Source: a virus
Lineage: Duplodnaviria; Heunggongvirae; Uroviricota; Caudoviricetes
Virus record (IMG/VR): IMGVR_UViG_3300029641_000003
Strand: one strand, 5' to 3'
Length of the DNA stretch: 64,000 nucleotides
Shown: one piece after another, positions 1 to 63,514 of the stretch
Position numbering within the stretch: the first letter of the stretch is position 1
How the letters are laid out: the number at the start of each line of letters is the position of its first letter
The notes under the pieces: generated by a model
The model's database searches: none
What the model was told of the DNA's origin: nothing
What the model saw: the letters and a program-made list of their open reading frames with translations, nothing else
Translations under genes and position numbers: made by a program

Positions 1-1049
1 TGCAATGCTGCCAGTTCGAGTCCGTGTTCACGGCTCAGGTCAGATGCAGCCATAACCGTATGTTCGGATGCGATCACGTACTCCGACGGGCGCAGGGCGT
101 AATTGCGCATGGACTGGTTAATGACAGGTATCAGGTTCGGATTGCGTTCAATGTTGATTTCAACCTGAACAGCGATTTCTGTGCCTTCTGCTGGTGCTTC
201 ATTAAAGGTGATATCGATAACGCCGGTATCGTATCGAACCTTTGCCGTCACAGAGAAAGAGTTGCCGTTGACGTCTTTGTCGTTGAAATACAGGTTGCCG
301 TCACCATCATCTACTTTGGACGGTTTGCGGTTAATCAGCAGTTTGTTGTAGCCCTGGCGCAGTGGGCAGGCCTGGCCTTCGAAGTTCTGGATATCAAACT
401 GGAAGGTGGTTTTGCTGCCATCGCCTTTTTCGGTCAGGATGTACAGGCGTTTCATCTGCGAATACACTCCAGCAGACTGCATGTTCAGTTCCTCGCCCTG
501 CTCGAATGTACCGAATTTTGTACCAGCAACGTTGGTCAGCTCGTAAATATTGGTTTCATCACGATCACAAGGGATAAACGTACATGCGTCGCTGGTGGCT
601 GCGCCGAGAGAAGCAGGCAGGATCAGTGCGGCATATTGTGCAACCTTCATTACACCATCGGAGGTGCGCATGTCCTTGGCTACTGATTCAAACATGGCTT
701 TGCCAGCGCCTTCATGCGTCTCTTTAGCGGACTCCATCATCAGGCGCTCAAGTGCTACATGGGCGTTGGCTAATACATCGCTTGCCGGATAATGCCCATA
801 CTGGCGTTTGTATTCATGAATAGACATGGCCCAGCTACCAATGATCTGGCGAGCTGCTTCTGGTTCAACGCCTTCAAACATAGGCTCTTTCTGGATAGCT
901 TTTTCCAGGTTAGCCATCATCACTTCGTTGTCGGCAATCATGTTACCGGCAGCATCAGTGGTTGGATCGACGGTCATAGCCATGACGCTTGCCGCCCGAT
1001 TCATAATCTCGCGCTCGCGCTTACGAGCTGGCTCAATGTTCTTGTTCAC
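1..1049 (-). CDS. hypothetical protein, 3' end lies beyond window start (possible virion or early protein)
   Basis: Continuous minus-strand frame with no stop from GTG at 1049 (AGGG 9 nt upstream) to position 1, normal amino-acid composition; absent from ORF track because it runs off the window; the plus-strand ORFs here are antisense to it. Confidence 0.5.
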   Translation of the reverse strand, partial: MNKNIEPARKREREIMNRAASVMAMTVDPTTDAAGNMIADNEVMMANLEKAIQKEPMFEGVEPEAARQIIGSWAMSIHEYKRQYGHYPASDVLANAHVALERLMMESAKETHEGAGKAMFESVAKDMRTSDGVMKVAQYAALILPASLGAATSDACTFIPCDRDETNIYELTNVAGTKFGTFEQGEELNMQSAGVYSQMKRLYILTEKGDGSKTTFQFDIQNFEGQACPLRQGYNKLLINRKPSKVDDGDGNLYFNDKDVNGNSFSVTAKVRYDTGVIDITFNEAPAEGTEIAVQVEINIERNPNLIPVINQSMRNYALRPSEYVIASEHTVMAASDLSREHGLELAAL

Positions 1050-1129
1050 GGTTAAACCCTAAATTCGGGCGCGGCGTGAAGATTCTTTTGACGAGGTGAC
1101 AATACTCACTTTGTTATTTAGTCAATAGC

Positions 1130-1193
1130 ATTAGAAAAATAATTTTCTTTAACAAAATCGTCATGTTGTGTTTTAATCTTAATTTTCTAACAC
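1130..1193. promoter_or_regulatory. operator-like half-sites ATTAGAAAAAT and ATTTTCTAACAC in divergent intergenic region
   Basis: Members of the TGTTAGAAAAT motif family, in inverted orientation, in AT-rich spacer between two divergent genes. Confidence 0.4.
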
Positions 1194-1208
1194 ATAACAT
1201 TAGAACAA

Positions 1209-1601
1209 ATGGCGTACAAGATCTTCGTTTCATACAAAAATGGTGCTAAAAGCCATTCTCTGAACACAAGCAGCAGATGCCTTGTAGAAGCTCAACTGTC
1301 ATCAATTCTTACCGAAAGAGATATTCTTTCCCTGGCTGAACGAATCGTGATTCTGCATTCAGGAAAGGCTATTCTTGATGTTCCCGCGCTTACCTCGCCT
1401 TCTGACGTTTTGGCATCTGTTAAGTGGCCTCAAATGGGCACACCTGTAAGAGTGGAAGATCCTGTAACGACCACTCTTTATATGCCGAAGTCAGTAAGGG
1501 ATTGGCTTGCTGCGGTTGGTAATGGGAAGGTCAGCGCGGGGCTTCGGAAGCTGGTTGAAATGGCTGATATTCCGGAGCTGAAAAATGCATGGAGACAGTG
1601 A
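1209..1601 (+). CDS. hypothetical protein (130 aa)
   Basis: ATG-initiated ORF downstream of operator-like sites; no recognised domain. Confidence 0.4.
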   Translation: MAYKIFVSYKNGAKSHSLNTSSRCLVEAQLSSILTERDILSLAERIVILHSGKAILDVPALTSPSDVLASVKWPQMGTPVRVEDPVTTTLYMPKSVRDWLAAVGNGKVSAGLRKLVEMADIPELKNAWRQ

Positions 1602-1659
1602 GTATAGGAAACATGAGTAACGCGAACCCATCGAAAACACAATATCGTTTAATGCTGGC

Positions 1660-3050
1660 TATCCCTCTATCGTTGATGATTGTTTTCAGCAAACAACCGC
1701 CTTTCCTCCGCGCCCAATGCGGGCTGGAAGGAAAGGCGGAAAAGCCCACAAGGCTTTAAAAAAATCATTACGGTGTTAGCATAAAAAACCTGTATCAATG
1801 AGCCGTGACTATGTTAAGAGCAACAAAAGTACGCATCTATCCAACCACTGAACAGGCTGAGTATCTCAATGCTCAGTTCGGTGCAGTGCGTTTTGCGTAC
1901 AACAAAGCTCTTCACATCAAAAAACACGCTTACCAGCGACACGGAGTGAATTTAAGTCCGCGTAAAGATTTAAAGCCGTTGTTGTCTGTGGCGAAGAAGT
2001 CCCGCAGATATGCCTGGCTTAAAGAATTTGATTCAATGGCATTGCAACAGGCGGTAATCAATCTTGATGTGGCGTTTTCCAACTTTTTTAATCCGAAGCT
2101 GAAAGCGCGGTTCCCGACGTTTAAACGTAAACATGGGAAGCAATCGAGCTACCATTGTGTCGGGATTAAAGTACTGGAGAATGCCATCAAAATTCCTAAG
2201 CTGGCACCGATAGAAGCGCGTATACACCGTGTAATGACGGGAAAAGTGACGAGCATAACAATCACTCGCAGTGCCACCGGGAAATACTACGCATCCATCC
2301 TTTGTGAAGACGGTATTCCCACACCAGCGAAACCTGCGTATCTGGAGGAAGAAAAGATTACTGGTGTGGATATGGGACTTGAGCACTATGCCATCACTTC
2401 TGATGCTGTAAAAGTTCCGAATCCTCGCCATCTCATCAATGCCAGCCGTAATCTGCGACGCAAACAAAAAACGCTATCCCGCAAACAAAAGGGAAGCGCG
2501 AACCGTAAAAAGGCCAGAATCCGTCTTGCGGCCTTACACGAACGGGTGGCGAATGCCCGTGCTGATTTTCAACACAAGCTCTCTCGTACAATTGTTGACG
2601 AAAACCAAGCGGTAATTGTGGAGACGCTGAAAACAGCCAACATGATGAAAAGCCACAATCTGGCAAGAGCGATAGGTGATGCTGGCTGGCACAGCTTCAT
2701 CACAAAGCTGGAGTACAAGGCAGCGACAAAAGGCGTTCACCTGGTAAAACTCGACCAGTGGTTTGCCAGTTCGAAAACGTGCCATTGTTGTGGTTACAAA
2801 ATGCCGGAAATGCCACTTCATAAACGCATCTGGCGATGCCCTGAGTGTGGAGCAGAGCACGACCGCGATATCAATGCGGCACTCAACATCCGGCAAAAAG
2901 GAATACTGGAACTAAAGGCGGCGGGACTCGTCGTCTCTGCCCATGGAGGCCAGCGTAAATCCGTCGCACAGACGGTTGCGGCCTGAGAAGTGGGAATCCT
3001 CGTCCGACCGGGCGGGGAGCAGTCACGAGCCTTGATCCCCCTTCCCTTCC
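1660..3050 (+). mobile_element. IS200/IS605-family insertion element carrying tnpB only (IS1341-like); ends approximate
   Basis: Subterminal hairpin CCGCCTTTCCT...AGGAAAGGCGG at 1696-1738 upstream of tnpB; no tnpA seen; structured sequence after tnpB stop. Confidence 0.5.
1805..2986 (+). CDS. tnpB: TnpB (IS200/IS605 OrfB, RuvC-like nuclease with C-terminal zinc finger)
   Basis: 393 aa; N-terminal RIYPTTEQAEYLNAQFGAVRFAYNKAL typical of OrfB_IS605; C-terminal CHCCGYKMP...CPECGAEHDRDINAALNI zinc ribbon. Confidence 0.85.
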   Translation: MTMLRATKVRIYPTTEQAEYLNAQFGAVRFAYNKALHIKKHAYQRHGVNLSPRKDLKPLLSVAKKSRRYAWLKEFDSMALQQAVINLDVAFSNFFNPKLKARFPTFKRKHGKQSSYHCVGIKVLENAIKIPKLAPIEARIHRVMTGKVTSITITRSATGKYYASILCEDGIPTPAKPAYLEEEKITGVDMGLEHYAITSDAVKVPNPRHLINASRNLRRKQKTLSRKQKGSANRKKARIRLAALHERVANARADFQHKLSRTIVDENQAVIVETLKTANMMKSHNLARAIGDAGWHSFITKLEYKAATKGVHLVKLDQWFASSKTCHCCGYKMPEMPLHKRIWRCPECGAEHDRDINAALNIRQKGILELKAAGLVVSAHGGQRKSVAQTVAA

Positions 3051-3322
3051 CAAATCTCCCTGTTTCTTTGGTTATTCAGTGCGTTTCTTTGGTTGCATTC
3101 ATCGATAGTGCTGAATAACTGTTCAGTGTATGCCGGATACTTGTTTAACAGCACAGGCGTGTCCTCTGGCACTATGCAAGGGGTATAATCAATCAGATTT
3201 CCCTGCGGTTTGCTGGTGGCTTCTACGGTAATTTGCATTGGCACGCTGATTGATTTCTTTTGCCCGTTCCCGCTGCATCCTGATAACGTCATCAGGCACA
3301 CGCACATCATTAACCCCGGCAT
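3023..3322 (-). CDS. o-spanin (Rz1-like lipoprotein) embedded out of frame in i-spanin gene
   Basis: Internal start gives MPGLMMCVCLMTLSGC with lipobox LSGC; lies inside 3189-3647 in another frame, the classic Rz/Rz1 arrangement. Confidence 0.55.
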   Translation of the reverse strand: MPGLMMCVCLMTLSGCSGNGQKKSISVPMQITVEATSKPQGNLIDYTPCIVPEDTPVLLNKYPAYTEQLFSTIDECNQRNALNNQRNREIWEGKGDQGS

Positions 3323-3647
3323 TGCGTAACGCAGTTTCAAGACGATTGATTTCATTCTGGCTTTCCTCCCGTTGTTTGATCAGGCTGGTATTCAGTTCTG
3401 CTGTTTTGCGCTGGTACTCCTTCTCCAGTGTTTTAATTCTTTCGTTTTCAGCCATCATGGCAGATCGCGATTTTTCACTTAACTGCAATGCGGTAGAAAG
3501 CGTGTTGTTCTCGCTTTCAAGTTGTGATTTTGAGTCTTCCAGGGAACGGATATACCTGATGTGATCGATAACTGCCGCCGTAGTACGGTAAATTCCATAA
3601 ATGGCTAAAAGCGCAACTACTATCAAAATTATCTTTTTCAAAACCAT
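3189..3647 (-). CDS. i-spanin (Rz-like): N-terminal transmembrane helix plus coiled coil
   Basis: Start taken at MVLKKIILIVVALLAIYGIY (TM helix) followed by charged coiled-coil region; overlaps o-spanin ORF. Confidence 0.55.
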   Translation of the reverse strand: MVLKKIILIVVALLAIYGIYRTTAAVIDHIRYIRSLEDSKSQLESENNTLSTALQLSEKSRSAMMAENERIKTLEKEYQRKTAELNTSLIKQREESQNEINRLETALRNAGVNDVRVPDDVIRMQRERAKEINQRANANYRRSHQQTAGKSD

Positions 3648-3718
3648 CCTCTTCAGATTTTTTTGTTGGTGTGATATGTGTACCAATTTGTAACCATTTA
3701 TGGGCTTAAATGGTGTGG

Positions 3719-4513
3719 TTATGGTTCCTTTTTAGTGTTGCTTTGGAGCGCATCGATTACACCTTGTGGCATGATCAAACTGATTGCGGGACTCATTACT
3801 TCATCGCCCAGTAGAGAACCGGTTAACGTAATAGCTACAGCATTCTCCAGTCCCTGTTTGGCTTTTCCGGTAGAGTCCTTAACTTGCTGTGCAAGTGTTG
3901 AGAGACTACTGCTCGTGTTGTTTATTGCATTTATTTGTTCTGTTGCTGCTTCCACAGCGTCTTTTAGTGCTTTGATCTCTTCTTCTGTTAGTGCTGGTTG
4001 CTGTGTTGTTCCGGTGGAACTTCCGTTGCCTGAAGCCTCCCCGCTTGACGCCTGAACTTTTGCATTTATAGCGGTCATGGCTGAAGTGATTGGCTCCAGT
4101 TCAAATGCTGCCAACGCGTCAATAAGCGATTGCGGATGCAGGGTATCTCCCATAACTGTTACGAGAGCAAATTCTGGCGCAGGAGATAACTCATTACCTT
4201 TGACGTAACATTCCCAGCCAATTTTCATCTGAAGTAATTCAGTTGGCGAAGCATACGGAGACAGCGAGTCGGCTAAATTGGTTGCTTCTGCACTGACAGT
4301 TTTCAGTTGTTCTGAAAAGACAGAAAGCTGATTGACCCATGAAACCACCGACGCCGGGTATGCTTTATCCTTCAGGATAAGAGCCTGGATATTCTCTTCC
4401 AGAGAACTGGCATTGGATGACGCTGTTTTACTTAGCGTGATAGATGCAGGCGTAGTTGTACCTGATGCATTTAGAATTTTGAATGCGTTAACTTCAGCGA
4501 TTGAATCAAGCAT
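3719..4513 (-). CDS. hypothetical Ala/Ser/Thr-rich protein (264 aa)
   Basis: Start overlaps stop of upstream PAAR gene (ATGA), so co-transcribed; no recognised motif. Confidence 0.45.
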   Translation of the reverse strand: MLDSIAEVNAFKILNASGTTTPASITLSKTASSNASSLEENIQALILKDKAYPASVVSWVNQLSVFSEQLKTVSAEATNLADSLSPYASPTELLQMKIGWECYVKGNELSPAPEFALVTVMGDTLHPQSLIDALAAFELEPITSAMTAINAKVQASSGEASGNGSSTGTTQQPALTEEEIKALKDAVEAATEQINAINNTSSSLSTLAQQVKDSTGKAKQGLENAVAITLTGSLLGDEVMSPAISLIMPQGVIDALQSNTKKEP

Positions 4514-4797
4514 TATGACACCTGAAAAATTGCCTCACCATTGGCGATGACTGAGCCACAAGAAAGGGGATCTCCCACACAAACAACTCCTTTCCCGCCT
4601 ATTGCAAACCATGAGCGCGTCGATACGGCTGATCCGGGGTGCGCGCTATTTCCGTCTGTATGGCTGGGGAACGCTCCCCCATCTACAACTACTGGCTTTC
4701 CATTTACGGTAAACCAGGAAACTGTTTCTGCTACAGGTCGCGGAGGGAATCCTCCATGACCAGAACAAACTGTGTCACTGGTCGCTATTGCACTCAT
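4513..4797 (-). CDS. PAAR-domain spike-tip protein
   Basis: 94 aa with PAAR-like repeats: DTVCSGHGG, VNGKPVVVDGG, AIGGKGVVCVGDPLSCGS. Confidence 0.6.
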   Translation of the reverse strand: MSAIATSDTVCSGHGGFPPRPVAETVSWFTVNGKPVVVDGGAFPSHTDGNSAHPGSAVSTRSWFAIGGKGVVCVGDPLSCGSVIANGEAIFQVS

Positions 4798-4859
4798 CTA
4801 ACACCTCCTTTTTCTTAAATCTTCTCCACTTTGTGATTTTCACTCTTCAGATTTCTTAC

Positions 4860-4965
4860 TTCTCATATTTGTCTCTGATTTGTCTCAAAAGGGTATCATG
4901 GGTACATCATGTATCATCTAAGTCTCTTTTGTGTCTCTTTTACGTCTCTAGTTTGATGCTTTTTA
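4860..4965. repeat. parC-like centromere iterons upstream of parM
   Basis: TGTCTC-containing units at about 11-bp spacing (TTGTCTCTGATTTGTCTCA; AAGTCTCTTTTGTGTCTCTTTTACGTCTCT), resembling R1 parC organisation. Confidence 0.45.
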
Positions 4966-5046
4966 CGCTATCTAACTTCTGGTCTTATTTTGTTTTCTCA
5001 TATAAAATTCAATTCTTTCTCAAATGTGTCTCAGAAGTGGAGCAAT

Positions 5047-6006
5047 ATGATGCGCATTTTTATCGACGATGGTTCTACCAATATCAAAATGCTGTGGGAA
5101 CAAGACGGGGAAACTCGAACCCATATCTGTCCGAACAGTTTTAAACGTGGATGGTCCGCCACATTTGGCGCAGGAAAGCCGTTTAACTACATCATTGATG
5201 ACGAAAAATATTCATATGACTTGATTTCGCCGGATGTGCTGCCGACGAATAATGTGGAATGGCAATACAGCCCGCTTAATGTGCTTGCTGTTCATCATGC
5301 CCTGCTTACAAGTGGCATTGAGCCTCAAGAAGTGGAAATAGTTGTCACGTTGCCACTGGCAGAGTTTTATGACGACGACGCACAATACAACATGAAAAAT
5401 ATTGAGCGGAAAAAGGCCAGCCTGATGCGACCAGTCACCCTTAACAAAGGTCAGGTTTTTACTATCAAAAAAGTGACTGTGCGCCCGGAGTCAATACCCG
5501 CAGGGATCGGTCTGTGCGACAGCCTTGTGCCAGCGCATTCTGTGCTTATTGTTGATCTTGGTGGGACTACTCTGGATGTGTCGATGGTCGCCGGGCAAAT
5601 GACCGCCGTTTCTCGCGTATTTGGCGATTCTAATCTCGGCGTTTCGCTGGTAACTAAAGAGGTCAGACAGGCACTTGCAAAAGCGAATACCGAAACCTCT
5701 AATTATAATGTCGATCAATTAATCATTAATCGTGATGATGAGGATTATTTGACCGACAATATTAACGATCCGTCTGCTATTGATGATGTTAAGAAAGCCA
5801 TTTCGTCAAGCATAGAACGACTCCGTACACGCGTACTGGATGTGATCAGTGATTTCAAAGGATACACGCATGTTATGGTCATTGGTGGCGGCGCGCCGCT
5901 TGTTGCTGATGCTATCCGTGAGCAGGTAAACATTCGTGACGATAGGTTTTTTGTTGCTGATGATCCACAACTTGCTCTTGTCTATGGTCTAAAATCTATC
6001 GGTTGA
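5047..6006 (+). CDS. parM: ParM/StbA actin-like plasmid segregation ATPase
   Basis: Start MMRIFIDDGSTNIK with GGAG upstream; recalled R1 ParM similarity along the length (SPNSFKR, WQYSPLNVLAVHHALLTSG, NIERKKA, GYTHVMVIGGGA). Confidence 0.85.
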   Translation: MMRIFIDDGSTNIKMLWEQDGETRTHICPNSFKRGWSATFGAGKPFNYIIDDEKYSYDLISPDVLPTNNVEWQYSPLNVLAVHHALLTSGIEPQEVEIVVTLPLAEFYDDDAQYNMKNIERKKASLMRPVTLNKGQVFTIKKVTVRPESIPAGIGLCDSLVPAHSVLIVDLGGTTLDVSMVAGQMTAVSRVFGDSNLGVSLVTKEVRQALAKANTETSNYNVDQLIINRDDEDYLTDNINDPSAIDDVKKAISSSIERLRTRVLDVISDFKGYTHVMVIGGGAPLVADAIREQVNIRDDRFFVADDPQLALVYGLKSIG

Positions 6007-6016
6007 TGAGGTTGCC

Positions 6017-6382
6017 ATGTCTCAGGAACGTCGAAAAGTATTGTTTTATCTTCGTCCTGGTCTTAACGCCAGTGAGCAATATGCTGATGCAAAACTTGAG
6101 GGCCATCCATTAAGAGATCGCAATGATATGGCGCGCACAGCGATGCTTGCAGGTATCGCTCTTGGCGAGGTTGATAGCAGATTACCTCCCATGTTGGCAT
6201 CGCTTTTATCCGGTGATAATAGCCCTGAAGTGATCAGAAAAATGCTGGTTTCATTTCTTGAAATTTCGCCTGAAGTTCGGGAAAACCCTGAAGGAAACCC
6301 CTCTGCCTCAGCGGATGTTAAAAAACCTGGCGTTTCGAAAAGCCGCTCTGCACAGAATTTGGCAAACTCACTCCCTGATTAA
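6017..6382 (+). CDS. parR: ParR/StbB-like centromere-binding adaptor
   Basis: 121-aa ORF immediately after parM; N-terminal RKVLFYLRPGLNASEQ...RTAMLAGIALG resembles R1 ParR. Confidence 0.6.
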   Translation: MSQERRKVLFYLRPGLNASEQYADAKLEGHPLRDRNDMARTAMLAGIALGEVDSRLPPMLASLLSGDNSPEVIRKMLVSFLEISPEVRENPEGNPSASADVKKPGVSKSRSAQNLANSLPD

Positions 6383-6399
6383 CAAATCTACATCTTCAA

Positions 6400-6424
6400 A
6401 GGCTGCAATTTGCAGCCTTTTTTA
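6400..6424 (+). terminator. intrinsic terminator after parR
   Basis: AGGCTGCA-ATT-TGCAGCCT hairpin followed by TTTTT. Confidence 0.6.
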
Positions 6425-6439
6425 TACTGTTATGGTTCT

Positions 6440-6660
6440 AATTTGGTGCTCTTTTAGTACCAAAATGGTGTTGTTGTGGTGCTGTTTTGTGTCTGGTTCC
6501 ACTTTGAGGCTGATTTCGTGTTAAACAGGATGCAACAGAGGGCAAATTTCGAGTGTTTAGTGTTATACTTTTGCAAAGCATAGTGACTCCACTATAGAGC
6601 CAAAACCGCATCAATAAGGCTTCTGTTTGGAACCATTTTGATACCAAAATAACACCGAGG
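6440..6660. repeat. centromere-like repeat cluster upstream of parA
   Basis: TTTTAGTACCAAAATGGTGTTGTT and GGTTCCA...TTTGAGGCT motifs, repeated again downstream of parG at 7595-7665. Confidence 0.4.
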
Positions 6661-6667
6661 GACGGAT

Positions 6668-7309
6668 ATGATTATATTGGTAGCCAGCCAAAAAGGTGGC
6701 TGTGGCAAATCAACCACCAGCGTAAACATTTGTGCGGAGCTTGCCCGCGCAAATAAGGACGTAGTTCTACTTGATGCAGATAAGCAAGGAACATCTGCCC
6801 GTTGGGCATCGGACCGTAATGCGGCAGAGGTTTCTCCAGTAATTCATTGCGTCCAGAAGTTTGGGAATATTCGTGAAACACTTCTTGATCTGGACAAGCG
6901 TTATGAATTTGTGGTTGTTGATACCGCTGGTCGTGATAGCAAAGAGATGCGCACCGGTATTACTGCGGCGGATGTTTTGCTTGTTCCATTCAGGCCATCT
7001 CAGCCAGATTTAGACACGCTGGCGCATTTTGTTGAAGTCTTTGAAGAGGCTTTGGATCTGATGCCTAATCCTAGCATTAAGGCGTGCGCAGTTTTAACAA
7101 TGGCCCCATCCAATCCGGTTGTGAATGAAGCCAATGAGGCCAAAGAGTACCTGGCTGAATATCCGCAACTGAAGTTGCTGAAAACCATCATTCGCGATCG
7201 CAAGGTTTACCGCGATTGTATGGCTGAAGGGAAGGGCGTTGTTGAGATGGACAACGGGAAAGCTAAAGGTGAAATCCAGATGTTGGTTAAGGAGTTATTA
7301 AGTGATTAA
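6668..7309 (+). CDS. parA: ParA/ParF-type small Walker ATPase (type Ib partition)
   Basis: 213 aa; deviant Walker A SQKGGCGKST at N-terminus, VVVDTAGR Walker B region. Confidence 0.85.
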   Translation: MIILVASQKGGCGKSTTSVNICAELARANKDVVLLDADKQGTSARWASDRNAAEVSPVIHCVQKFGNIRETLLDLDKRYEFVVVDTAGRDSKEMRTGITAADVLLVPFRPSQPDLDTLAHFVEVFEEALDLMPNPSIKACAVLTMAPSNPVVNEANEAKEYLAEYPQLKLLKTIIRDRKVYRDCMAEGKGVVEMDNGKAKGEIQMLVKELLSD

Positions 7310-7589
7310 GCCTCGTAAATCGGTAAAAGCCCCCGAAGTAAAAGACCTCGATCTTGAACGCCGAATTGAGGCTTTTGCCAGCAAAGCTGATTTGGTGCCG
7401 GGTGAGCAACCAGAAGACAACAAAGTGCTCGATAAGGACGCCCCACGTGATTTTAAATCCATTCGTGTTGGCTTCAATGAATACGAGTACCAGGTACTTG
7501 ATGCGTTAAGCAAAAAGCATAATCGCAGCAAATTGAATATGATCCGCCATGCTATCCTCATGCTTGCAGAGTCTGAGGATACAAAATGA
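7302..7589 (+). CDS. ParG-like ribbon-helix-helix centromere-binding protein
   Basis: 95-aa ORF with GTG start overlapping parA stop; C-terminal RHH-like segment IRVGFNEYEYQVLDALSKK...MIRHAILMLAE. Confidence 0.5.
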   Translation: MIKPRKSVKAPEVKDLDLERRIEAFASKADLVPGEQPEDNKVLDKDAPRDFKSIRVGFNEYEYQVLDALSKKHNRSKLNMIRHAILMLAESEDTK

Positions 7590-7594
7590 CGCTG

Positions 7595-7665
7595 GAATGA
7601 CACCGTTTTGGTTCCATGTGTTATTTTGAGGCTACTTTGATTCCTTTTTAGTACCAGAATGGTGT
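7595..7665. repeat. second copy of centromere-like repeats flanking parA-parG
   Basis: GGTTCCATGTGTTATTTTGAGGCT and TTTTAGTACCAGAATGGTGTTGTT match motifs at 6440-6660. Confidence 0.4.
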
Positions 7666-7700
7666 TGTTAGTGTACCGTAACGGTGCTTGTTTGATGTTA

Positions 7701-7724
7701 TAAAAGCCCCATATGGGGCTTTTC
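7701..7724. terminator. bidirectional intrinsic terminator between convergent par and methyltransferase operons
   Basis: AAAA-AGCCCC-ATAT-GGGGCT-TTTT palindrome flanked by A-run and T-run. Confidence 0.55.
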
Positions 7725-8759
7725 TTAATTAAGTGTGGCTATAATGTCGTTAGCTATCATTCGCGTTGATGCTTTACAGGATACAGAGCGACGGGATGGC
7801 ATAGGATACACCTTGAAGCCATTGCCAACGTAAAGTTCGCGAATGTTAGGCGCACCACTGTTTGTTATCACAATTTTCGCTCCGCGTCTGTGGGCATCCA
7901 CCAGCAGTGACACCAGCCGTTGTTGATCTTCAAACCTAAAGCTATGCCCTGAGTAATTTGTAAATCCGGTAGTGTCGGGCAATGGTTCATAGGGGGGATC
8001 GCAGAAAATCACATCATCATTCCCGGCAGCCTCAATTACACCAGCAAAATCGCCGGACACAAATTCCGAATACTTTGAAATATCGTCAGCCAGGAACGCC
8101 TCCATTTCCGCGAGAGGGAAGTGGGGTGATTTCTGCTTTCCATATCCGACGTTGAACTCTCCTTTACGGTTATAGCGAGTGACGCCATTAAAACAATGAC
8201 GATTGAGATACAGGAACGCCGCTGCATGGTGAAGGGAATCATAAGCACCATTGTTGAATGCATTGCGAACATTCAAAAATGCATCAGCAGAGTTGTAATC
8301 CTGAAAAAAACGATATGCCAGTGTGATAAGAGAATGCCCTTCACGCTGCAATGTCTGATAGAAGTTAATCAGGTCATTATTGATATCGTTCAGCAGGTTG
8401 CTTTTAAATCCGGCATTAGTGAAAACAGCGCCACCTCCAACGAAAGGTTCTATCAACCGTTTTCCGTGGGGCAGGTGTTCGAAGATAATGGGCAGTGCAG
8501 AAAATTTGCCGCCGACCCACTTAAAGACTGGGCGATCAAATTCGTCCTCCGAGCGAATACGTCGCATATGGCTGATAGTGGCTTCCGCCGCAGGACGATG
8601 ATTGTCGCTATAAGAAATAAATTTAGCACCAATATCAGCCACGGATTCCCTCCTTATTTGCTTCAAATACAGCTCTTGCAAAACCGTAAGGTGTCGCGCT
8701 ACGAAAATTCGCTCTTTCAGGCCCTGGCGGTGCCTTGTGTATTCGGTTATCTGGATCAC
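7725..8759 (-). CDS. Dam-like N6-adenine DNA methyltransferase (start uncertain, possibly ATG at 8567)
   Basis: KWVGGKF, FVGGGAV (SAM motif), NRHCFNGVTRYN, DPPY catalytic motif; recalled E. coli Dam similarity begins at about residue 75 of the ORF. Confidence 0.8.
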   Translation of the reverse strand: MIQITEYTRHRQGLKERIFVARHLTVLQELYLKQIRRESVADIGAKFISYSDNHRPAAEATISHMRRIRSEDEFDRPVFKWVGGKFSALPIIFEHLPHGKRLIEPFVGGGAVFTNAGFKSNLLNDINNDLINFYQTLQREGHSLITLAYRFFQDYNSADAFLNVRNAFNNGAYDSLHHAAAFLYLNRHCFNGVTRYNRKGEFNVGYGKQKSPHFPLAEMEAFLADDISKYSEFVSGDFAGVIEAAGNDDVIFCDPPYEPLPDTTGFTNYSGHSFRFEDQQRLVSLLVDAHRRGAKIVITNSGAPNIRELYVGNGFKVYPMPSRRSVSCKASTRMIANDIIATLN

Positions 8760-59453: not shown

Positions 59454-61139
59454 TTAATTATTGCTCATCACAAATTTTGCAAAGTTGATTAATTGTTCTT
59501 GCGTCCAGTTTTCCGGATCGTCACCGGACGACAACGGCGCGGATTCGTACATACCATGCTCGTTGTTTTGCTCTGATTCATTCGCCTTAAACTCTTTGAT
59601 CATTACGTTGAGAGTGTCATCGTCGATACGAAGCTGTTCGGTGAACAGATAACGCATAAACGCGTCGCTACCCGCCAGTTTCGGGTTGTTCTGGATCTGG
59701 TCCATTATTTGCGAGATGACAGCTACGAAGTTGGCGCGCGCATCCAGCTCTCGGTTTTCCTCTTCCTGGATAGCTGTATTCATTGAGTTGAATTGCACGT
59801 CATAAGGACGGTTTTTTTCGGTGTAAACCTTCCCGTATTTATAAGCGAGGTGAATGTCATGAAGCCGATAAATAGTCCGCTGGGCGGCCTGTCTGATCCA
59901 GTTCGCGCGTAATGCGGCCTGGATAGCTGTTTGCTGCCAACCGCCTTCTCCAAGTCCACCACTCATCTGATCAGCCCAGCCAAGCATTGTTGCGTCAATA
60001 CCGAGGCTTGCCGCGAGCTGTCGGAGATGAAACATAACGTCTTCGATACCACTGATATCTGCGGGTATAGATTGCGTATCAATGGTGATCCCGTTCTTCC
60101 CATCCCCCATGACGGGTATCAGATGGTTAAGTACAGATGGGAGAGCATTAGAATTAATCGACCGTTGCGCTACGAGGTCGCTATGACGCTTCAGTGCCTG
60201 GCTGACCCCGCGCGTATAATTCGCCGCGTTTACCGGATCTATCGTGTTCGTTGTGAGTGCAATCAGGCGATCAATTTTTGCAGCGTTGTTTCGCGTTGCT
60301 TTCAGCGCAGCAAGCGCGGCACATAAATTCAGGTAGGGTTCATAACTGTATTCAAGAAACGACGTACCGTAGTTCTGCGTCTCCATTAACGGCTTGTCCT
60401 GCTGTTCACTAAGCAAGGAATAGCCTTTAGTGCCGTAAGTTACTGGCATTACTTTATGCTGAGGCGTCCAGTACGGGTTTTTCATGGAAACCAGATTCCA
60501 CGGTTCGGTTATAACTCTGCGCAAAGTATGCGTATCCAGAATGTAATCACCGCTGAATCCGACAAGTTGGCTACCGCGATAAAACTCCTGAACGAAATGA
60601 GGGAGCGTGTAATAGCTCGACTCAATTCCAGTTATCCCCTTCCCTTGCTCTGCATATGGACGGATATACGACACACCGAAAATAGCCATGATCATGGCCC
60701 ACGATGGAAGGCCATCATTAATCATTGAGCTTAAATCAGCGGTCAATTCCTCACATCGACTTACAGCCTCCTTATCCGCCCCATTTTTCGGCGCGAGAAT
60801 AAATGCGAGGCCTGTTTTTTTTGATGGAGCCAGAGAATGCGCAATGTGAATGTTTAATGCTGTGGAGATAGTCGGACTTTTCGCCATCGTCTCCAGTATG
60901 TTGTATTTTTGCAGGCGGTCACTCGGTAATTCTGCCGATATAGATACTGTATCCGCCGCGCTTGTCATGCCATCGCTATTGCTCCCCAGGATGCCAGGAC
61001 GCAAGGCGGACAGGCCAGAACGAGCAACGACGCTATGCCCGCTCGCAAATACGACCGGATCGGCAGGCGTAACATCACCACCGCTGAAGGCTTTCTTCAA
61101 TGCCGACAGAAAGCCCTTGTTTTTGTCTTTCGTTGCCAT
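59454..61139 (-). CDS. portal-like protein
   Basis: 561 aa, size and position typical of a portal (prt) gene; no motif verification possible. Confidence 0.4.
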   Translation of the reverse strand: MATKDKNKGFLSALKKAFSGGDVTPADPVVFASGHSVVARSGLSALRPGILGSNSDGMTSAADTVSISAELPSDRLQKYNILETMAKSPTISTALNIHIAHSLAPSKKTGLAFILAPKNGADKEAVSRCEELTADLSSMINDGLPSWAMIMAIFGVSYIRPYAEQGKGITGIESSYYTLPHFVQEFYRGSQLVGFSGDYILDTHTLRRVITEPWNLVSMKNPYWTPQHKVMPVTYGTKGYSLLSEQQDKPLMETQNYGTSFLEYSYEPYLNLCAALAALKATRNNAAKIDRLIALTTNTIDPVNAANYTRGVSQALKRHSDLVAQRSINSNALPSVLNHLIPVMGDGKNGITIDTQSIPADISGIEDVMFHLRQLAASLGIDATMLGWADQMSGGLGEGGWQQTAIQAALRANWIRQAAQRTIYRLHDIHLAYKYGKVYTEKNRPYDVQFNSMNTAIQEEENRELDARANFVAVISQIMDQIQNNPKLAGSDAFMRYLFTEQLRIDDDTLNVMIKEFKANESEQNNEHGMYESAPLSSGDDPENWTQEQLINFAKFVMSNN

Positions 61140-61371: not shown

Positions 61372-61554
61372 GTGAAGTATTCAGAGTTCAAACGCTGGTT
61401 AATCCAGCAAGGGGCAGAGTTCAGGAAAGCGCCAGGTGGCGGCAGTCATCAGAAAGTGAACCTGAACGGAAAGCGGTCGGTTTTCCCGGACCACGGTTCA
61501 AAGGAAATGCCTGAACCGCTACGCAAGAAAATAATGAAGGACCTGGGGCTTTAA
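61372..61554 (+). CDS. hicA: HicA mRNA interferase toxin
   Basis: 60 aa, GTG start after AAGGAA; FRKAPGGGSHQK...FPDHGSKEMPEPLRKKIMKDLGL fits HicA. Confidence 0.7.
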   Translation: MKYSEFKRWLIQQGAEFRKAPGGGSHQKVNLNGKRSVFPDHGSKEMPEPLRKKIMKDLGL

Positions 61555-61584
61555 GCCCCAGCCTTTTTCACTAGGAGCTTCTCT

Positions 61585-62016
61585 ATGTTTAACTATCCGG
61601 TAAAACTGGAGCGCGACGACAAAACCGGCGCGTATGTCGTATCATGCCGCGACCTACCATTGTTTAATTCCGTGGGTGACTCAGTTGAAGAAGCGTTGCT
61701 TGAGGCTGGTTATGGATTGGTCGCAGCGGTTGCGATTGAGATTGAAGAACGCCGACCTGTTCCCACTGGTAGCGAGCCAAAAGAAGGTGAGTACGTTGTC
61801 TCTTTGCCAGTGCTACCAGCAATGAAGGCTGCACTCCACAACGCGATGATAGAAACCGGCACACGCAAAGCAGAGTTGGCGCGCAAACTCGGCAAAAATG
61901 GAACACAGATTGATCGGCTTCTCGACGTCGAACATTCATCGAAAGTTGAAACTGTCGAGCTGGCACTGCATCAACTGAATAAAAATATCGCCGTATCTGT
62001 CACACCAATGCGGTGA
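61585..62016 (+). CDS. hicB: HicB antitoxin
   Basis: 143 aa; N-terminal MFNYPVKLERDDKTGAYVVSCRDLP HicB fold, C-terminal HTH-like TRKAELARKLGKNGTQIDRLL. Confidence 0.7.
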   Translation: MFNYPVKLERDDKTGAYVVSCRDLPLFNSVGDSVEEALLEAGYGLVAAVAIEIEERRPVPTGSEPKEGEYVVSLPVLPAMKAALHNAMIETGTRKAELARKLGKNGTQIDRLLDVEHSSKVETVELALHQLNKNIAVSVTPMR

Positions 62017-62128
62017 CTGCTCCCCGCCCTGGCTGGGCGAGGATTTACGGGGTATTTGTTAAAAACGCTCTATTCAAAGAAGAAATACCGAATCCCCCGG
62101 AGGTTATCCGGGGTGTCCGGTCGCCAGG

Positions 62129-63514
62129 TCAGGTTTCCAGCCCAAAATCGCTTTGTTCTGTTTTGGCTTCGAACATCGTGAAGTTAAGCCCTTTCCCCTC
62201 TCCATGTTCCAGTTCAATCTCATTAGAAACAGCGGTCAAAATACTACGTAGATCAACATCTCCACCGCCGAACATATCGCCCAACGCCTGCTGTTTATGA
62301 ATCAGTTCGTCGTTGATTTTTTGTGCCATTTTTTTGAATGCAGCCCCCATGCGCTTCGCGCTTCGATTATTTGCCACGATGAATAGCGCCAACGCCTCAG
62401 CTTCCGGCGTGCTATCACCGAAGAGTCCGCGCTGGGCTATCACCTCTTCCACTGCCTGACCGTTGTCTTTGGCTTCACGAACAAGGTTAATCGCGTCCTG
62501 GAGTGCTGCTATAGCCTGTTTATCCAGACCGTTCACCTGCTCTATACCATCAACCAGACCAGTTACAGCATCATGATGTGCATCGCCAGAAATCGACTGC
62601 ATTTGCGCAAAGTCACTGGCTGCTGTATTAAGCGCGGTCAGGATATTGCGCATTTCCGGATCCGGTTCTTCCGCCACAAGCCGAACAAGTCGCTCATCCT
62701 TATAGGCTTTGGCAAAAATCGCATTCTGAATGCGATCGATAAGCTGTTTCGTTGGACGTCCATCGGCTGTAAGCAAACCTGCCGTCGCGGTATCGCCTAT
62801 TTCGTGCAAAAACGCACGAATAAACGCATCATTGGACCGCGCCAGTAGATTTCCATCATCTGAAGGATTAAATAGCGCCATGACGCTCTCAGTGAGAAAT
62901 TGCGCATCCGCATACGCTTTCTCACTTGCAGCCATCTCTTGCAGATCGCTGATGTTTGAGTCGCGTGCAAATTGAGCACGATCAACGTCAGTGAGGCGCT
63001 CGCGAACCAGTACAGGCATCACCATTGCCCTGACGTCTTCGGGATTAAGGCCAAACTCTTTAGCGTGATCGATAAGATATTGTCGGTAATCTTCAGCCTG
63101 CCCTTGTTCATAAGCACGCCAGATTCCCATGCTTCGACCATTACCAGACTCAACGACATTATCCGGACCAACAATCGGGGAACCATGACTACTCATACCC
63201 GAATCAGTGAGTTGTGCCGGGCGTAAATTGGCGGCGATACGGTTAACCTGGAGCTTGCTTGACAGTCGGGTGCGATCGCGAGGCTGGAGTTCCTCCGGAA
63301 ATGACGGATTTATACTTCCGTCCAGGTTGTTAGAAATGATGAGCTTTTTGGCATCAATAACCTTGAACGCTGTTTTAACTTCGTCGCCTTTGCTGGTGAC
63401 GACATAGCTGCTACGCCCCAACTTCGTCTCTTGCTTTTCAAGAGATGACACCACAGCGATAACCCCCTCAATGTTCGCTGCGGCCAAAAGTGCTGATGTT
63501 ACGTTTTGAGTCAC
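62129..63514 (-). CDS. hypothetical protein (461 aa), possibly virion-associated
   Basis: Long ATG ORF convergent with hicAB; acidic, helix-rich. Confidence 0.45.
   Translation of the reverse strand: MTQNVTSALLAAANIEGVIAVVSSLEKQETKLGRSSYVVTSKGDEVKTAFKVIDAKKLIISNNLDGSINPSFPEELQPRDRTRLSSKLQVNRIAANLRPAQLTDSGMSSHGSPIVGPDNVVESGNGRSMGIWRAYEQGQAEDYRQYLIDHAKEFGLNPEDVRAMVMPVLVRERLTDVDRAQFARDSNISDLQEMAASEKAYADAQFLTESVMALFNPSDDGNLLARSNDAFIRAFLHEIGDTATAGLLTADGRPTKQLIDRIQNAIFAKAYKDERLVRLVAEEPDPEMRNILTALNTAASDFAQMQSISGDAHHDAVTGLVDGIEQVNGLDKQAIAALQDAINLVREAKDNGQAVEEVIAQRGLFGDSTPEAEALALFIVANNRSAKRMGAAFKKMAQKINDELIHKQQALGDMFGGGDVDLRSILTAVSNEIELEHGEGKGLNFTMFEAKTEQSDFGLET

What the first reader, a model, noticed from the sequence alone, without database searches (positions are those of the whole stretch)
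1660..3050. tnpB-only IS200/IS605 element inserted beside the spanin genes
A TnpB gene with an upstream subterminal hairpin and no tnpA is inserted between an operator-controlled small gene and the lysis spanin pair. The right end of the element abuts or overlaps the 3' end of the o-spanin ORF (stop at 3023), so the insertion may have altered the o-spanin C-terminus. The 3' flank (2987-3060) would encode the guide RNA of the TnpB nuclease.
Basis: partly seen in the sequence, partly recalled or inferred. Interest (0 to 1): 0.45.

Follow-up and report, generated by a model that had tools for sequence, protein, structure and literature searches.

The report
TnpB-only insertion sequence in a phage-plasmid
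A small, well-known kind of jumping gene that carries only an RNA-guided nuclease (TnpB) sits next to the lysis genes of a D6-like phage-plasmid. It left the lysis gene intact but replaced most of a neighbouring gene, and its guide RNA is aimed at relatives that lack the element.

Summary
Confirmed and ordinary in kind. Window 1690-3026 is a 1,337-bp tnpA-less IS200/IS605 element of the ISEc46 lineage (closest known copy 95% identical) in a D6-like phage-plasmid.

- **Ends.** They are fixed to the base by 59 right ends, 12 left ends and a clean empty site in norW.
- **Cargo.** It carries an intact TnpB (391 aa, catalytic residues as in ISDra2 TnpB) and a covariation-supported omega-RNA scaffold (2916-3026). 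The guide starts at 3027.
- **o-spanin.** It is not altered. The last four IS bases (TCAC) now supply its stop codon and the wobble base of its last Ser codon, and the tail (...GDQGS) equals that of IS-free phage D6.
- **Gene actually lost.** The IS replaces 330 bp of an orf53-like gene, from one TCAG target motif to a second. The same motif-to-motif replacement occurs at three other sites (P1/RCS47, IncI1, hicA).
- **Target.** The guide matches the vacant site (TTCAG + 20 nt) in D6 and in 12 IMG/VR contigs, so the nuclease is programmed against IS-free relatives.
- **Mobility.** The left end has lost its conserved hairpin foot and DNA-guide bases, so this copy is probably no longer excisable.

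The parts
1613..1689 (+). 5' remnant of the orf53-like gene (phrog_8101), now a pseudogene. It also carries a 43-bp deletion between two GCTGGCTATC repeats that shifts the frame.
   Evidence: Alignment with IS-free relatives L003, L091-L095 and D6. The 43-bp deletion is seen only in the window.
1686..1689 (+). TCAG, the transposon-adjacent motif (TAM, the left cleavage and target site). It belongs to the host gene, not to the IS.
   Evidence: TCAG lies directly 5' of the left end in all 12 copies of this clade. It is present in IS-free relatives. A clean empty site in norW confirms it.
1690..3026 (+). The insertion sequence: 1,337 bp, tnpA-less IS200/IS605 family, ISEc46 lineage.
   Evidence: Homology to other copies starts and stops at these bases. 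The best copies are 95.2-95.8% identical, in P1-like plasmids.
1697..1739 (+). Left-end subterminal hairpin, in a mutated form. 9 of 43 positions differ from the clade consensus, and the first 13 nt are the exact reverse complement of consensus positions 31-43.
   Evidence: Fold; comparison with 11 other copies.
1811..2986 (+). tnpB, 391 aa, an RNA-guided nuclease. RuvC D (GVDMG, nt 2363), E (VETLK, nt 2618) and D (HDRD, nt 2858) are present, as are the CxxC...CxxC zinc-finger motifs (nt 2780, 2837).
   Evidence: (ISDra2 TnpB 8h1j/8exa, E 6e-81 over residues 5-384). dN/dS is 0.16-0.19 against the nearest copies.
2916..3026 (+). Omega-RNA scaffold with five helices: 2916-22/2930-36, 2940-44/2990-94, 2947-54/2978-84, 2961-65/2971-75 and 2998-3005/3010-17. 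The last helix is also the right-end hairpin bound by TnpA.
   Evidence: RNAalifold on 58 copies: 16 of 35 pairs show compensatory changes. 98.2% of cells are paired versus 36-54% when slid, and 0 of 500 shuffles reach the observed values. Coordinates verified.
3023..3026 (+). TCAC, the transposon-encoded motif (right cleavage site). On the other strand it supplies the o-spanin TGA stop codon and the third base of its last Ser codon.
   Evidence: The right-end boundary ...GGCGGGGAGCAGTCAC| is seen in 59 loci. D6 has TTCAG at the same place.
3027..3046 (+). Guide segment of the omega-RNA, made from flanking DNA (GAGCCTTGATCCCCCTTCCC). 3027-3035 is also the last two codons and stop of the destroyed orf53-like gene. 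The whole segment is antisense to the o-spanin 3' end.
   Evidence: The position follows from the right-end boundary. The same sequence, preceded by TTCAG, is present in D6, L093 and L095 and in 12 IMG/VR contigs. The guide length is inferred from ISDra2-type TnpB.
3023..3355 (-). o-spanin, 110 aa, with lipobox LSGC. The protein sequence is unchanged by the insertion.
3189..3686 (-). i-spanin ORF. The likely start is ATG at 3647, as annotated in relatives. It overlaps the o-spanin gene.

Best explanation
Window 1690-3026 is a non-autonomous IS200/IS605 element of the ISEc46 lineage: TnpB plus omega-RNA, with no TnpA.

Shown:
- The left end lies 3' of a TCAG motif inside an orf53-like gene of a D6-like phage-plasmid.
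- The right end is joined to the DNA that, in IS-free relatives, follows a second TTCAG 330 bp downstream. The element therefore replaced that stretch and killed the gene.
- The element's last bases (TCAC) mimic the target (TCAG), so the convergent o-spanin keeps its stop codon and its protein sequence.
- TnpB has all catalytic residues and is under purifying selection.
- The right end encodes a conserved structured RNA.
- The guide equals the vacant site of IS-free relatives.

Inferred:
- TnpB with its omega-RNA cuts TTCAG + GAGCCTTGATCC... in sister or incoming D6-like plasmids that lack the element. Repair from the IS-bearing copy then copies the element in (homing and retention, as shown for ISGst and ISDra2 TnpB).
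- The IS-bearing plasmid is spared because TCAC is not a TAM.
- Movement to new sites needs a Y1 transposase (TnpA) in trans, and such a gene exists in E. coli chromosomal copies.
- This copy's left end has lost the bases 5' of the hairpin foot (the DNA guide) and the lower stem. It is therefore probably fixed in place.
- The 330-bp replacement most likely arose from TnpA chemistry at two target motifs: one insertion, followed by transfer of one IS end to a second motif in cis.
For: - Identity and ends.
- Clean empty site: the autonomous relative in norW has flanks that rejoin to intact norW at 360/360 identity.
- Replaced gene: seven IS-free relatives carry orf53. The window's left flank ends ...TTTTCAG and its right flank starts where the relatives read ...CTTCAG|GAGCC.
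- o-spanin unchanged.
- TnpB intact. dN/dS is 0.16-0.19.
- Omega-RNA.
- Vacant targets exist. There is no self-target in the window.
- TnpA: absent from the window and from the plasmid copies; a tnpA match is present in 34 of the 80 relatives fetched by protein search, full-length in most of them, and in E. coli NZ_CP135671.1.
- Left-end damage: 9 of 43 positions differ from 11 other copies. In IS608, mutating the guide bases 5' of the hairpin foot abolishes the synaptic complex (PMC3201880).
- Homing model: Meers et al., 10.1101/2023.03.14.532601.
- Motif-to-motif replacement recurs. In P1/RCS47, 142 bp ending CTTAG are replaced. In IncI1 R64, 639 bp ending ATCAG are replaced. In hicA, 40 nt ending TTCAG are replaced.
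Against: - No expression, cleavage or TAM data exist for this TnpB.
- The clade's TAM (TCAG) differs from that of the wider family (TTAG). Whether the protein's TAM reading followed the change is untested.
- Three close IS-free relatives differ from the guide at positions 8-10 and might escape cutting.
- Calling the left end dead is an extrapolation from IS608. The inner 4 bp and the loop of the hairpin survive.
- No intermediate of the replacement (the IS at one motif with the 330 bp still present) was found, so the order of events is unknown.
- Rfam has no family for this RNA.
Confidence: 0.75

Rival explanations
1. The element is still a fully mobilisable IS. The altered left-end hairpin is a tolerated variant, and TnpA supplied in trans can excise and move this copy.
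For: The right end, the TAM and the TEM are intact. The loop and the inner GCCC/GGGC pairs of the left hairpin are kept, and the new hairpin is very stable. TnpA-encoding relatives exist in E. coli.
Against: 7 of 9 consecutive bases that cover the guide position and the hairpin foot are changed, while 11 other copies are invariant there. In IS608, mutating those guide bases abolishes synaptic complex formation (PMC3201880). The orf53 remnant beside the left end has decayed further (a 43-bp deletion), which suggests long residence.
Confidence: 0.2
2. The 330-bp loss comes from two separate insertions of the IS, at the first and at the second TCAG, followed by homologous recombination between the two copies. 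It was not a single TnpA-mediated event.
For: This route gives exactly the observed product and is a classical route to IS-bounded deletions. A local hop followed by TnpB cutting of the old site would promote it (my inference from the homing model).
Against: It needs two rare insertions 40-639 bp apart, in the same orientation, at four independent loci. No single-insertion intermediate or two-copy form was found in PLSDB, IMG/VR or JGI metagenomes.
Confidence: 0.25
3. The deletion is unrelated to the IS. It was either an older polymorphism of the plasmid or a later microhomology deletion that happens to end at the IS.
For: The region is polymorphic: o-spanin tails are 107, 110 or 126 aa, and there is a 43-bp repeat-mediated deletion nearby.
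Against: Both deletion ends are flush with the IS ends to the base. In all four replacement cases the lost segment ends in T[C/T]AG, with a chance of about (2/256)^4 by my own calculation. The junction keeps the IS's own final C rather than the G expected from recombination within the shared TCA. All seven IS-free relatives have the full gene.
Confidence: 0.05
4. The tnpB is domesticated. It would act as a nuclease-dead RNA-guided regulator (TldR-like), for example of the convergent lysis genes, or as a host-serving function, and not as part of a selfish element.
For: The guide and read-through transcripts are antisense to the o-spanin 3' end. The left end looks disabled. tnpB is under purifying selection.
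Against: The RuvC D-E-D residues and the zinc finger are intact and the protein is full length, unlike TldR proteins. The same element with the same ends sits at many unrelated sites. The guide is simply the flanking DNA, as in any IS605-family copy.
Confidence: 0.05

Closest known systems
ISEc46 (IS200/IS605 family, as annotated in phage-plasmid RCS47, FO818745)
   Same: It has the same architecture: a short left end, tnpB only, and a right end ending GGGGAGCAGTCAC. It inserts 3' of TTTTCAG in a phage-plasmid. The RCS47 copy also replaced target DNA, 142 bp relative to P1.
   Different: It is only 79% identical in DNA, well below what would count as the same IS. The window's element is closer (95%) to unnamed copies in P1-like plasmids of E. 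coli and E. albertii. The insertion site is different.
ISDra2 TnpB with omega-RNA (PDB 8h1j, 8exa, 8bf8)
   Same: The proteins are homologous over almost their full length (E 6e-81), with the same catalytic and zinc-finger residues. In both, the guide RNA scaffold overlaps the 3' end of tnpB and the guide comes from the flank.
   Different: The TAM is TCAG here, versus TTGAT for ISDra2 (the latter from my own knowledge). ISDra2 carries its own tnpA. No biochemistry exists for this protein.
IS608 of Helicobacter pylori (TnpA peel-and-paste model)
   Same: The end geometry matches. The left cleavage site lies about 18 nt 5' of the hairpin foot (19 in IS608) and the right cleavage site 9 nt 3' of the foot (10 in IS608). 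There is a tetranucleotide target and no target duplication. A change of the target (TTAG to TCAG) goes with a change of the bases 5' of the hairpin foot (GTAAAC to GAGAAC), as expected if DNA guides read the target.
   Different: There is no tnpA in this copy, the motifs are different, and the left-end guide region is destroyed here.
ISGst elements and the TnpB homing model (Meers et al., 10.1101/2023.03.14.532601)
   Same: The logic is the same: a TAM at the left end, a near-identical TEM at the right end that protects the element, a guide matching the donor joint or vacant site, many tnpA-less copies, and gene-less PATE-like derivatives.
   Different: Here the vacant site lies in a competing or sister phage-plasmid, not in a chromosome, and the copy has replaced target DNA rather than simply inserting.

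Membership tests
IS200/IS605 family insertion sequence | Encodes a TnpB/OrfB protein (HTH_OrfB_IS605, OrfB_IS605, zinc-ribbon domains) | tested here: met
   all three Pfam domains above cutoff; NCBIfam guided_TnpB 353 bits against a cutoff of 100.
IS200/IS605 family insertion sequence | Subterminal hairpins of related sequence at both ends, with no terminal inverted repeats | tested here: inconclusive
   The right-end hairpin CCTCGTCC/GGGCGGGG is present. In 11 other copies the left end has the same stem (CCTCGCCC/GGGCGGGG). In the window the left stem is largely rewritten. The feature is met for the family and degraded in this copy.
IS200/IS605 family insertion sequence | Inserts 3' of a fixed short motif without target-site duplication | tested here: met
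   TCAG lies 5' of all 12 clade copies. The norW copy's flanks rejoin to the intact gene at 360/360. TCAG is present in IS-free relatives of the window.
IS200/IS605 family insertion sequence | Y1 (HUH) transposase TnpA | tested here: not met
   None in the 64-kb window. A tnpA match is present divergently upstream of tnpB in 34 of 80 relatives, full-length in most of them, and in an E. coli chromosomal copy. This copy is therefore a non-autonomous member.
IS200/IS605 family insertion sequence | Multiple copies at unrelated sites with the same sharp boundaries | tested here: met
   742 E. coli records and 555 plasmids hold matches. The right-end boundary is identical in 59 loci.
OMEGA system (TnpB nuclease plus omega-RNA) | Intact RuvC catalytic triad and zinc finger | tested here: met
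   Alignment to ISDra2 TnpB; residues located.
OMEGA system (TnpB nuclease plus omega-RNA) | Conserved structured RNA overlapping the tnpB 3' end and ending at the right-end boundary | tested here: met
   Five helices; 16 pairs with compensatory changes; 98.2% paired; 0 of 500 shuffles reach the observed values. There is no Rfam family match, so the evidence is covariation only.
OMEGA system (TnpB nuclease plus omega-RNA) | TAM- and guide-dependent DNA cleavage; omega-RNA expressed | not testable with these tools
   This needs interference assays and RNA-seq.
ISEc46 (the named ISfinder element) | Near-identity to the reference copy (my recollection of ISfinder practice: above about 95% DNA identity for the same IS) | tested here: not met
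   79% DNA identity to the copy annotated as ISEc46 in RCS47. Same lineage, not the same IS. ISfinder itself was not available.
TldR-type domesticated TnpB | Loss of RuvC catalytic residues or C-terminal truncation, and a fixed non-IS context | tested here: not met
   The catalytic residues and full length are retained, and the IS ends are present.
Two-component spanin (neighbouring genes) | An i-spanin with an N-terminal membrane helix, plus an overlapping o-spanin lipoprotein with a lipobox | tested here: met
   Rz-like spanin PHROGs hit both proteins. The LSGC lipobox and hydrophobic N-termini are visible in the translations.

The most novel reading that the evidence does not exclude
Replacement of the DNA between two target motifs (TAM to TAM) may be a regular outcome of IS200/IS605 transposition that I could not find described. 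Under this reading, TnpA transfers one IS end to a second nearby TCAG/TTAG, or uses two motifs during integration. An insertion then often deletes 40-640 bp, sometimes a whole gene, in the same step.

This would make these small elements precise gene-replacement agents on plasmids and phage-plasmids. Four of the six insertion sites for which an IS-free comparator resolves both junctions show it, and no intermediates were found.
Probability: 0.3. Interest if true: 0.55.

Novelty: new member of a known kind. Interest (0 to 1): 0.3.

Why it matters
For annotating this plasmid, the result is practical:
- The lysis cassette is intact.
- The gene actually lost is an orf53-like gene of unknown function.
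- The tnpB should be labelled as a non-autonomous IS whose guide RNA points at IS-free D6-like plasmids.

More generally, the locus is a compact natural example of three things:
- The right-end motif of an IS605-family element mimics its target so closely that a convergent gene ending in ...C-TGA keeps its stop codon after insertion.
- A TnpB guide can be aimed at a competing or sister mobile element rather than at a chromosome.
- These elements can replace target DNA from one target motif to the next. I did not find this pattern described, and it would be cheap to test.

Tried and rejected
- **Rfam.** A scan of 1-8000 at E <= 1 gave no hit, so the omega-RNA had to be shown by covariation.
- **The window's own junctions.**
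  - The right junction was searched as an exact pattern in IMG/VR: none.
  - The left junction was searched in JGI metagenomes: none.
  - No PLSDB, INPHARED or complete E. coli record spans the window's junctions.
  - The insertion is on record only in ENA-type assemblies.
- **Intermediates of the replacement.**
  - For the window's site, both hypothetical junctions were searched in IMG/VR, and one of them in JGI metagenomes. The left-junction scan would also have caught the other. None was found.
  - For the IncI1 site, both junctions were searched in PLSDB. None was found.
- **Promoters and terminators.** The scan of 1050-3750 found nothing above chance.
- **Replaced genes.** Pfam and NCBIfam give no family for the D6 orf53 homologue or the R64 198-aa protein.
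- **Literature.**
  - ISEc46 appears only in resistance-genomics listings.
  - Searching TnpB with phage-plasmid found nothing relevant.
  - Searching for adjacent or flanking deletions with IS605/IS608 found nothing.
- **Microhomology deletion at the right end.** Rejected. The junction keeps the IS's final C, and the P1 case ends in TTAG, which shares little with GTCAC.
- **The lost segments as insertions in the IS-free plasmids.** Rejected. The 330 bp is the in-frame interior of a conserved ORF.
- **The copy in NZ_CP085065.1 (L089).** Its right flank starts just after the hicA TTCAG, but its left flank comes from a differently arranged region. I could not resolve what was replaced there.
- **Pairing register.** I could not assign an exact pairing register between the TAM and the left-end guide bases.
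Full report
**What the window is**

The first 6 kb match Escherichia phage D6 at about 81% and a set of E. coli and E. marmotae plasmids at 98-99%. These are D6-like phage-plasmids. The local gene order is capsid, orf52, orf53, o- and i-spanin, upfB-like, PAAR, ParM. An 87-kb ENA metagenome contig is 100% identical to window 1-5986. The identical TnpB protein is on four contigs; the place shown has the window's gene order, and the tool lists the other three as similar places. The feature is therefore not an assembly accident.

**Checking the observation**

- ORF 1805-2986 (+) carries the three Pfam domains of TnpB. The likely start is ATG 1811, giving 391 aa, as annotated in relatives.
- The upstream hairpin at 1697-1739 is real and far stronger than in shuffles (z = -5.75).
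- No TnpA is encoded anywhere in the window.
- The convergent genes 3023-3355 and 3189-3686 (-) hit Rz-like spanin families. The shorter one has an LSGC lipobox.

**Defining the element**

- Homology to other copies runs from 1690 to 3026.
- The right boundary ...GGCGGGGAGCAGTCAC| is identical in 59 loci from many Gammaproteobacteria, followed by unrelated DNA.
- The left boundary is TCAG|C(A/G)AAA... in all 12 copies of the E. coli plasmid clade.
- The wider family has TTAG| at the same place (39 loci).
- A relative that still has its divergent tnpA sits in norW of E. coli TUM9803. Its two flanks, joined, equal intact norW at 360 of 360 bases. This proves insertion 3' of TCAG with no duplication or loss, and it fixes both ends to the base.
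- The geometry mirrors IS608. The left cleavage site lies about 18 nt 5' of the hairpin foot and the right one 9 nt 3' of it, versus 19 and 10 in IS608 (PMC3201880).
- The clade's switch from TTAG to TCAG goes with a change of the bases just 5' of the hairpin foot, GTAAAC to GAGAAC. This is what one expects if those bases act as the DNA guide that reads the target. I could not assign the exact pairing register.

**What the insertion did to the plasmid**

- All seven IS-free relatives examined carry a 152-160-aa gene (D6 orf53, phrog_8101, no known function) between orf52 and the spanins.
- In the window, its first part survives up to ...GATGATTGTTTTCAG (1689). Then comes the IS. After the IS, the sequence resumes with GAGCCTTGA.
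- In the relatives, that same GAGCCTTGA follows a second ...CTTCAG 330 bp downstream. The IS therefore replaces 330 bp that begin after one target motif and end with another.
- The remnant has decayed further. It carries a 43-bp deletion between two GCTGGCTATC repeats that is unique to the window.

**The o-spanin**

- In D6 the gene ends ...GGC TCC TGA, and the TGA is the complement of the TCA in the second TTCAG.
- In the window the last four IS bases, TCAC, take that place. The gene now ends ...GGC TCG TGA.
- The protein is the same 110 aa ending ...EGKGDQGS.
- The stop codon is thus now IS-encoded, but nothing changed at the protein level.
- The same arrangement occurs where a copy abuts lpa in P1-like plasmids. 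There the lpa stop is the TCA of the target TCAG in P1 and of the IS's TCAC after insertion.
- Among IS-free relatives the o-spanin tail is itself variable: 110, 126 or 107 aa, through changes around the orf53 stop codon.

**The nuclease and its RNA**

- TnpB aligns with ISDra2 TnpB over residues 5-384 (E 6e-81), and the RuvC D, E, D and both CxxC motifs are conserved.
- Against its nearest copies, dN/dS is 0.16-0.19.
- An alignment of the last 230 nt of 58 copies folds into five helices. 16 of the 35 predicted pairs (32 in these helices) show compensatory changes.
- 98.2% of cells are paired, against 36-54% when the partners are slid. No shuffle out of 500 reaches the observed values.
- In window coordinates the scaffold is 2916-3026. 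The last helix is also the right-end hairpin.
- The guide therefore begins at 3027 (GAGCCTTGATCCCCCTTCCC...).
- Preceded by TTCAG, exactly this sequence is present in D6, in two close plasmid relatives and in 12 IMG/VR contigs.
- The window has no second copy of the guide sequence. Its own copy is preceded by TCAC, not by a TAM.
- By the homing model established for ISGst and ISDra2 TnpB (10.1101/2023.03.14.532601), the complex would cut IS-free sister or incoming D6-like plasmids and be copied into them during repair. This step is inferred, not shown.
- Three close relatives differ from the guide at positions 8-10. Whether that is escape or chance cannot be told.

**Is this copy still mobile?**

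- Eleven other clade copies share the left-end sequence CCGCCGAGAACCCTCGCCCAATGCGGGCGGGGAGGAAAGGCGG nearly unchanged: nine are identical and two differ at a single base in the 3' arm.
- The window differs at 9 of 43 positions. Seven of these lie in one run that covers the guide position and the foot of the hairpin.
- The new 13-nt left arm is the exact reverse complement of consensus positions 31-43.
- This looks like a single template-switch (quasi-palindrome) event that made a longer hairpin at the cost of the conserved one.
- In IS608, mutation of the guide bases abolishes the synaptic complex. I therefore consider this copy probably non-excisable, while the TnpB and omega-RNA half is intact. 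This is an inference.

**Motif-to-motif replacement elsewhere**

I compared other copies with IS-free relatives.

| Site | IS-free sequence | With IS |
|---|---|---|
| P1 versus RCS47-type | TTTTCAG\|142 bp ending CTTAG\|TATGG | TTTTCAG\|IS\|TATGG |
| IncI1 R64 versus many IncI1 plasmids (incl. ColIb-P9) | GAAATCAG\|639 bp (a whole gene) ending ATCAG\|GGGTGG | GAAATCAG\|IS\|GGGTGG |
| hicA, with the window itself as the IS-free state | GTATTCAG\|40 nt ending TTCAG\|GAAAGCG | GTATTCAG\|IS\|GAAAGCG (IMG/VR contig L111) |

- Simple insertions occur in norW. The P1 lpa/pacA site is also simple apart from a 4-nt TCAA repeat unit.
- Four replacements of 40-639 bp thus each end in T[C/T]AG, which chance would give about (2/256)^4 of the time by my own calculation.
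- No intermediate was found in PLSDB, IMG/VR or JGI metagenomes.
- I favour TnpA chemistry at two motifs, with transfer of the right end to a downstream motif in cis. That reaction has the same chemistry as normal integration and would release the intervening strand as a circle.
- The rival route is two insertions followed by recombination between the copies. I found no description of this pattern in the searched literature. Much of the older IS605 literature is not in that library.

**Comparison with known families and verdict**

- The element is a non-autonomous member of the IS200/IS605 family with an ISDra2-like TnpB and omega-RNA.
- It belongs to the ISEc46 lineage but is only 79% identical to the copy so named.
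- It is not a TldR-type domesticated tnpB, because the catalytic residues and the IS ends are present.
- The kind is well known and the site is new.
- The points of interest are the stop-codon mimicry, the guide aimed at IS-free phage-plasmids, the disabled left end and the recurrent motif-to-motif replacement.
- Overall interest is modest (0.3).

Noticed in passing
window 62013-62058 (- strand), with TTAA at 62059-62062: A 46-nt relic of a related element. It consists of a left-end 5' part (CAAATACCCCGTAAATC), one hairpin (CTCGCCC...GGGCGGGG) and a right-end tail (AGCAGTCAC), and it abuts hicB. The hicB TGA stop lies inside the relic's GTCAC. The same relic is in plasmid NZ_CP085065.1 (L089 3443-3500). 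IMG/VR contigs L111 (full IS) and L115 (a 48-nt collapsed form at the identical site) show how such single-hairpin scars arise.
   Followed up: partly
window 61372-62016 (+); 61383-61387 and about 61423-61427: A hicA/hicB toxin-antitoxin pair. The hicA 5' end holds two TTCAG motifs 40 nt apart that are insertion and replacement sites for this IS lineage in other plasmids (L089, L111). Those insertions truncate the toxin gene.
   Followed up: partly
L089 (NZ_CP085065.1 57757-59068), one of the window's closest relatives: This plasmid lacks the IS at the orf53 site but carries another copy (90% identical) whose right flank starts just after the hicA TTCAG. Its left flank comes from upstream of a ddrB-ParB-like gene that is arranged differently from the window. 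The rearrangement was not resolved.
   Followed up: partly
window 3027-3040 and the same site in L001, L003, L091-L095: The o-spanin C-terminal tail and orf53 stop region is polymorphic among IS-free relatives (GAGCCTTGATCCCCC, GAGCCTTAACCCCC, GAGCCTTAACCCCCC). This gives o-spanins of 110, 126 or 107 aa. The changes fall at guide positions 8-10 of this TnpB. Escape from cutting versus chance cannot be distinguished.
   Followed up: partly
window 1125-1208: Operator-like repeats lie upstream of the orf52-like gene: ATAGCATTAGAAAAA / ATAACATTAGAACAA, and the inverted pair TTAGAAAAATAA / TTAATTTTCTAA. Because the IS lies in the same orientation downstream, tnpB may be co-transcribed under that control.
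   Followed up: no
window 1654-1663 versus L003 2154-2206: A 43-bp deletion between two 10-bp direct repeats (GCTGGCTATC) in the orf53 remnant is unique to the window. There are also two extra substitutions in the next 24 nt. Both suggest decay after the gene was inactivated.
   Followed up: yes
L096 (E. coli TUM9803 chromosome NZ_CP135671.1, 1420508-1422208): An autonomous relative (divergent tnpA plus tnpB, 91% identical to the window's IS) interrupts norW. It is a possible in-trans source of TnpA for the plasmid-borne tnpA-less copies.
   Followed up: partly
L088 (R64 60367-60963) and hundreds of IncI1-type plasmids: In IncI1 plasmids that carry the IS, the whole 198-aa gene downstream of psiA in the leading region is replaced by it. 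That gene has no family assignment.
   Followed up: partly
window 4513-4797 (-) and 62129-63514 (-): A PAAR-motif protein lies next to the upfB-like gene, as in D6 and P1. A 461-aa ddrB-like ParB-superfamily protein lies beside the hicAB pair.
   Followed up: no
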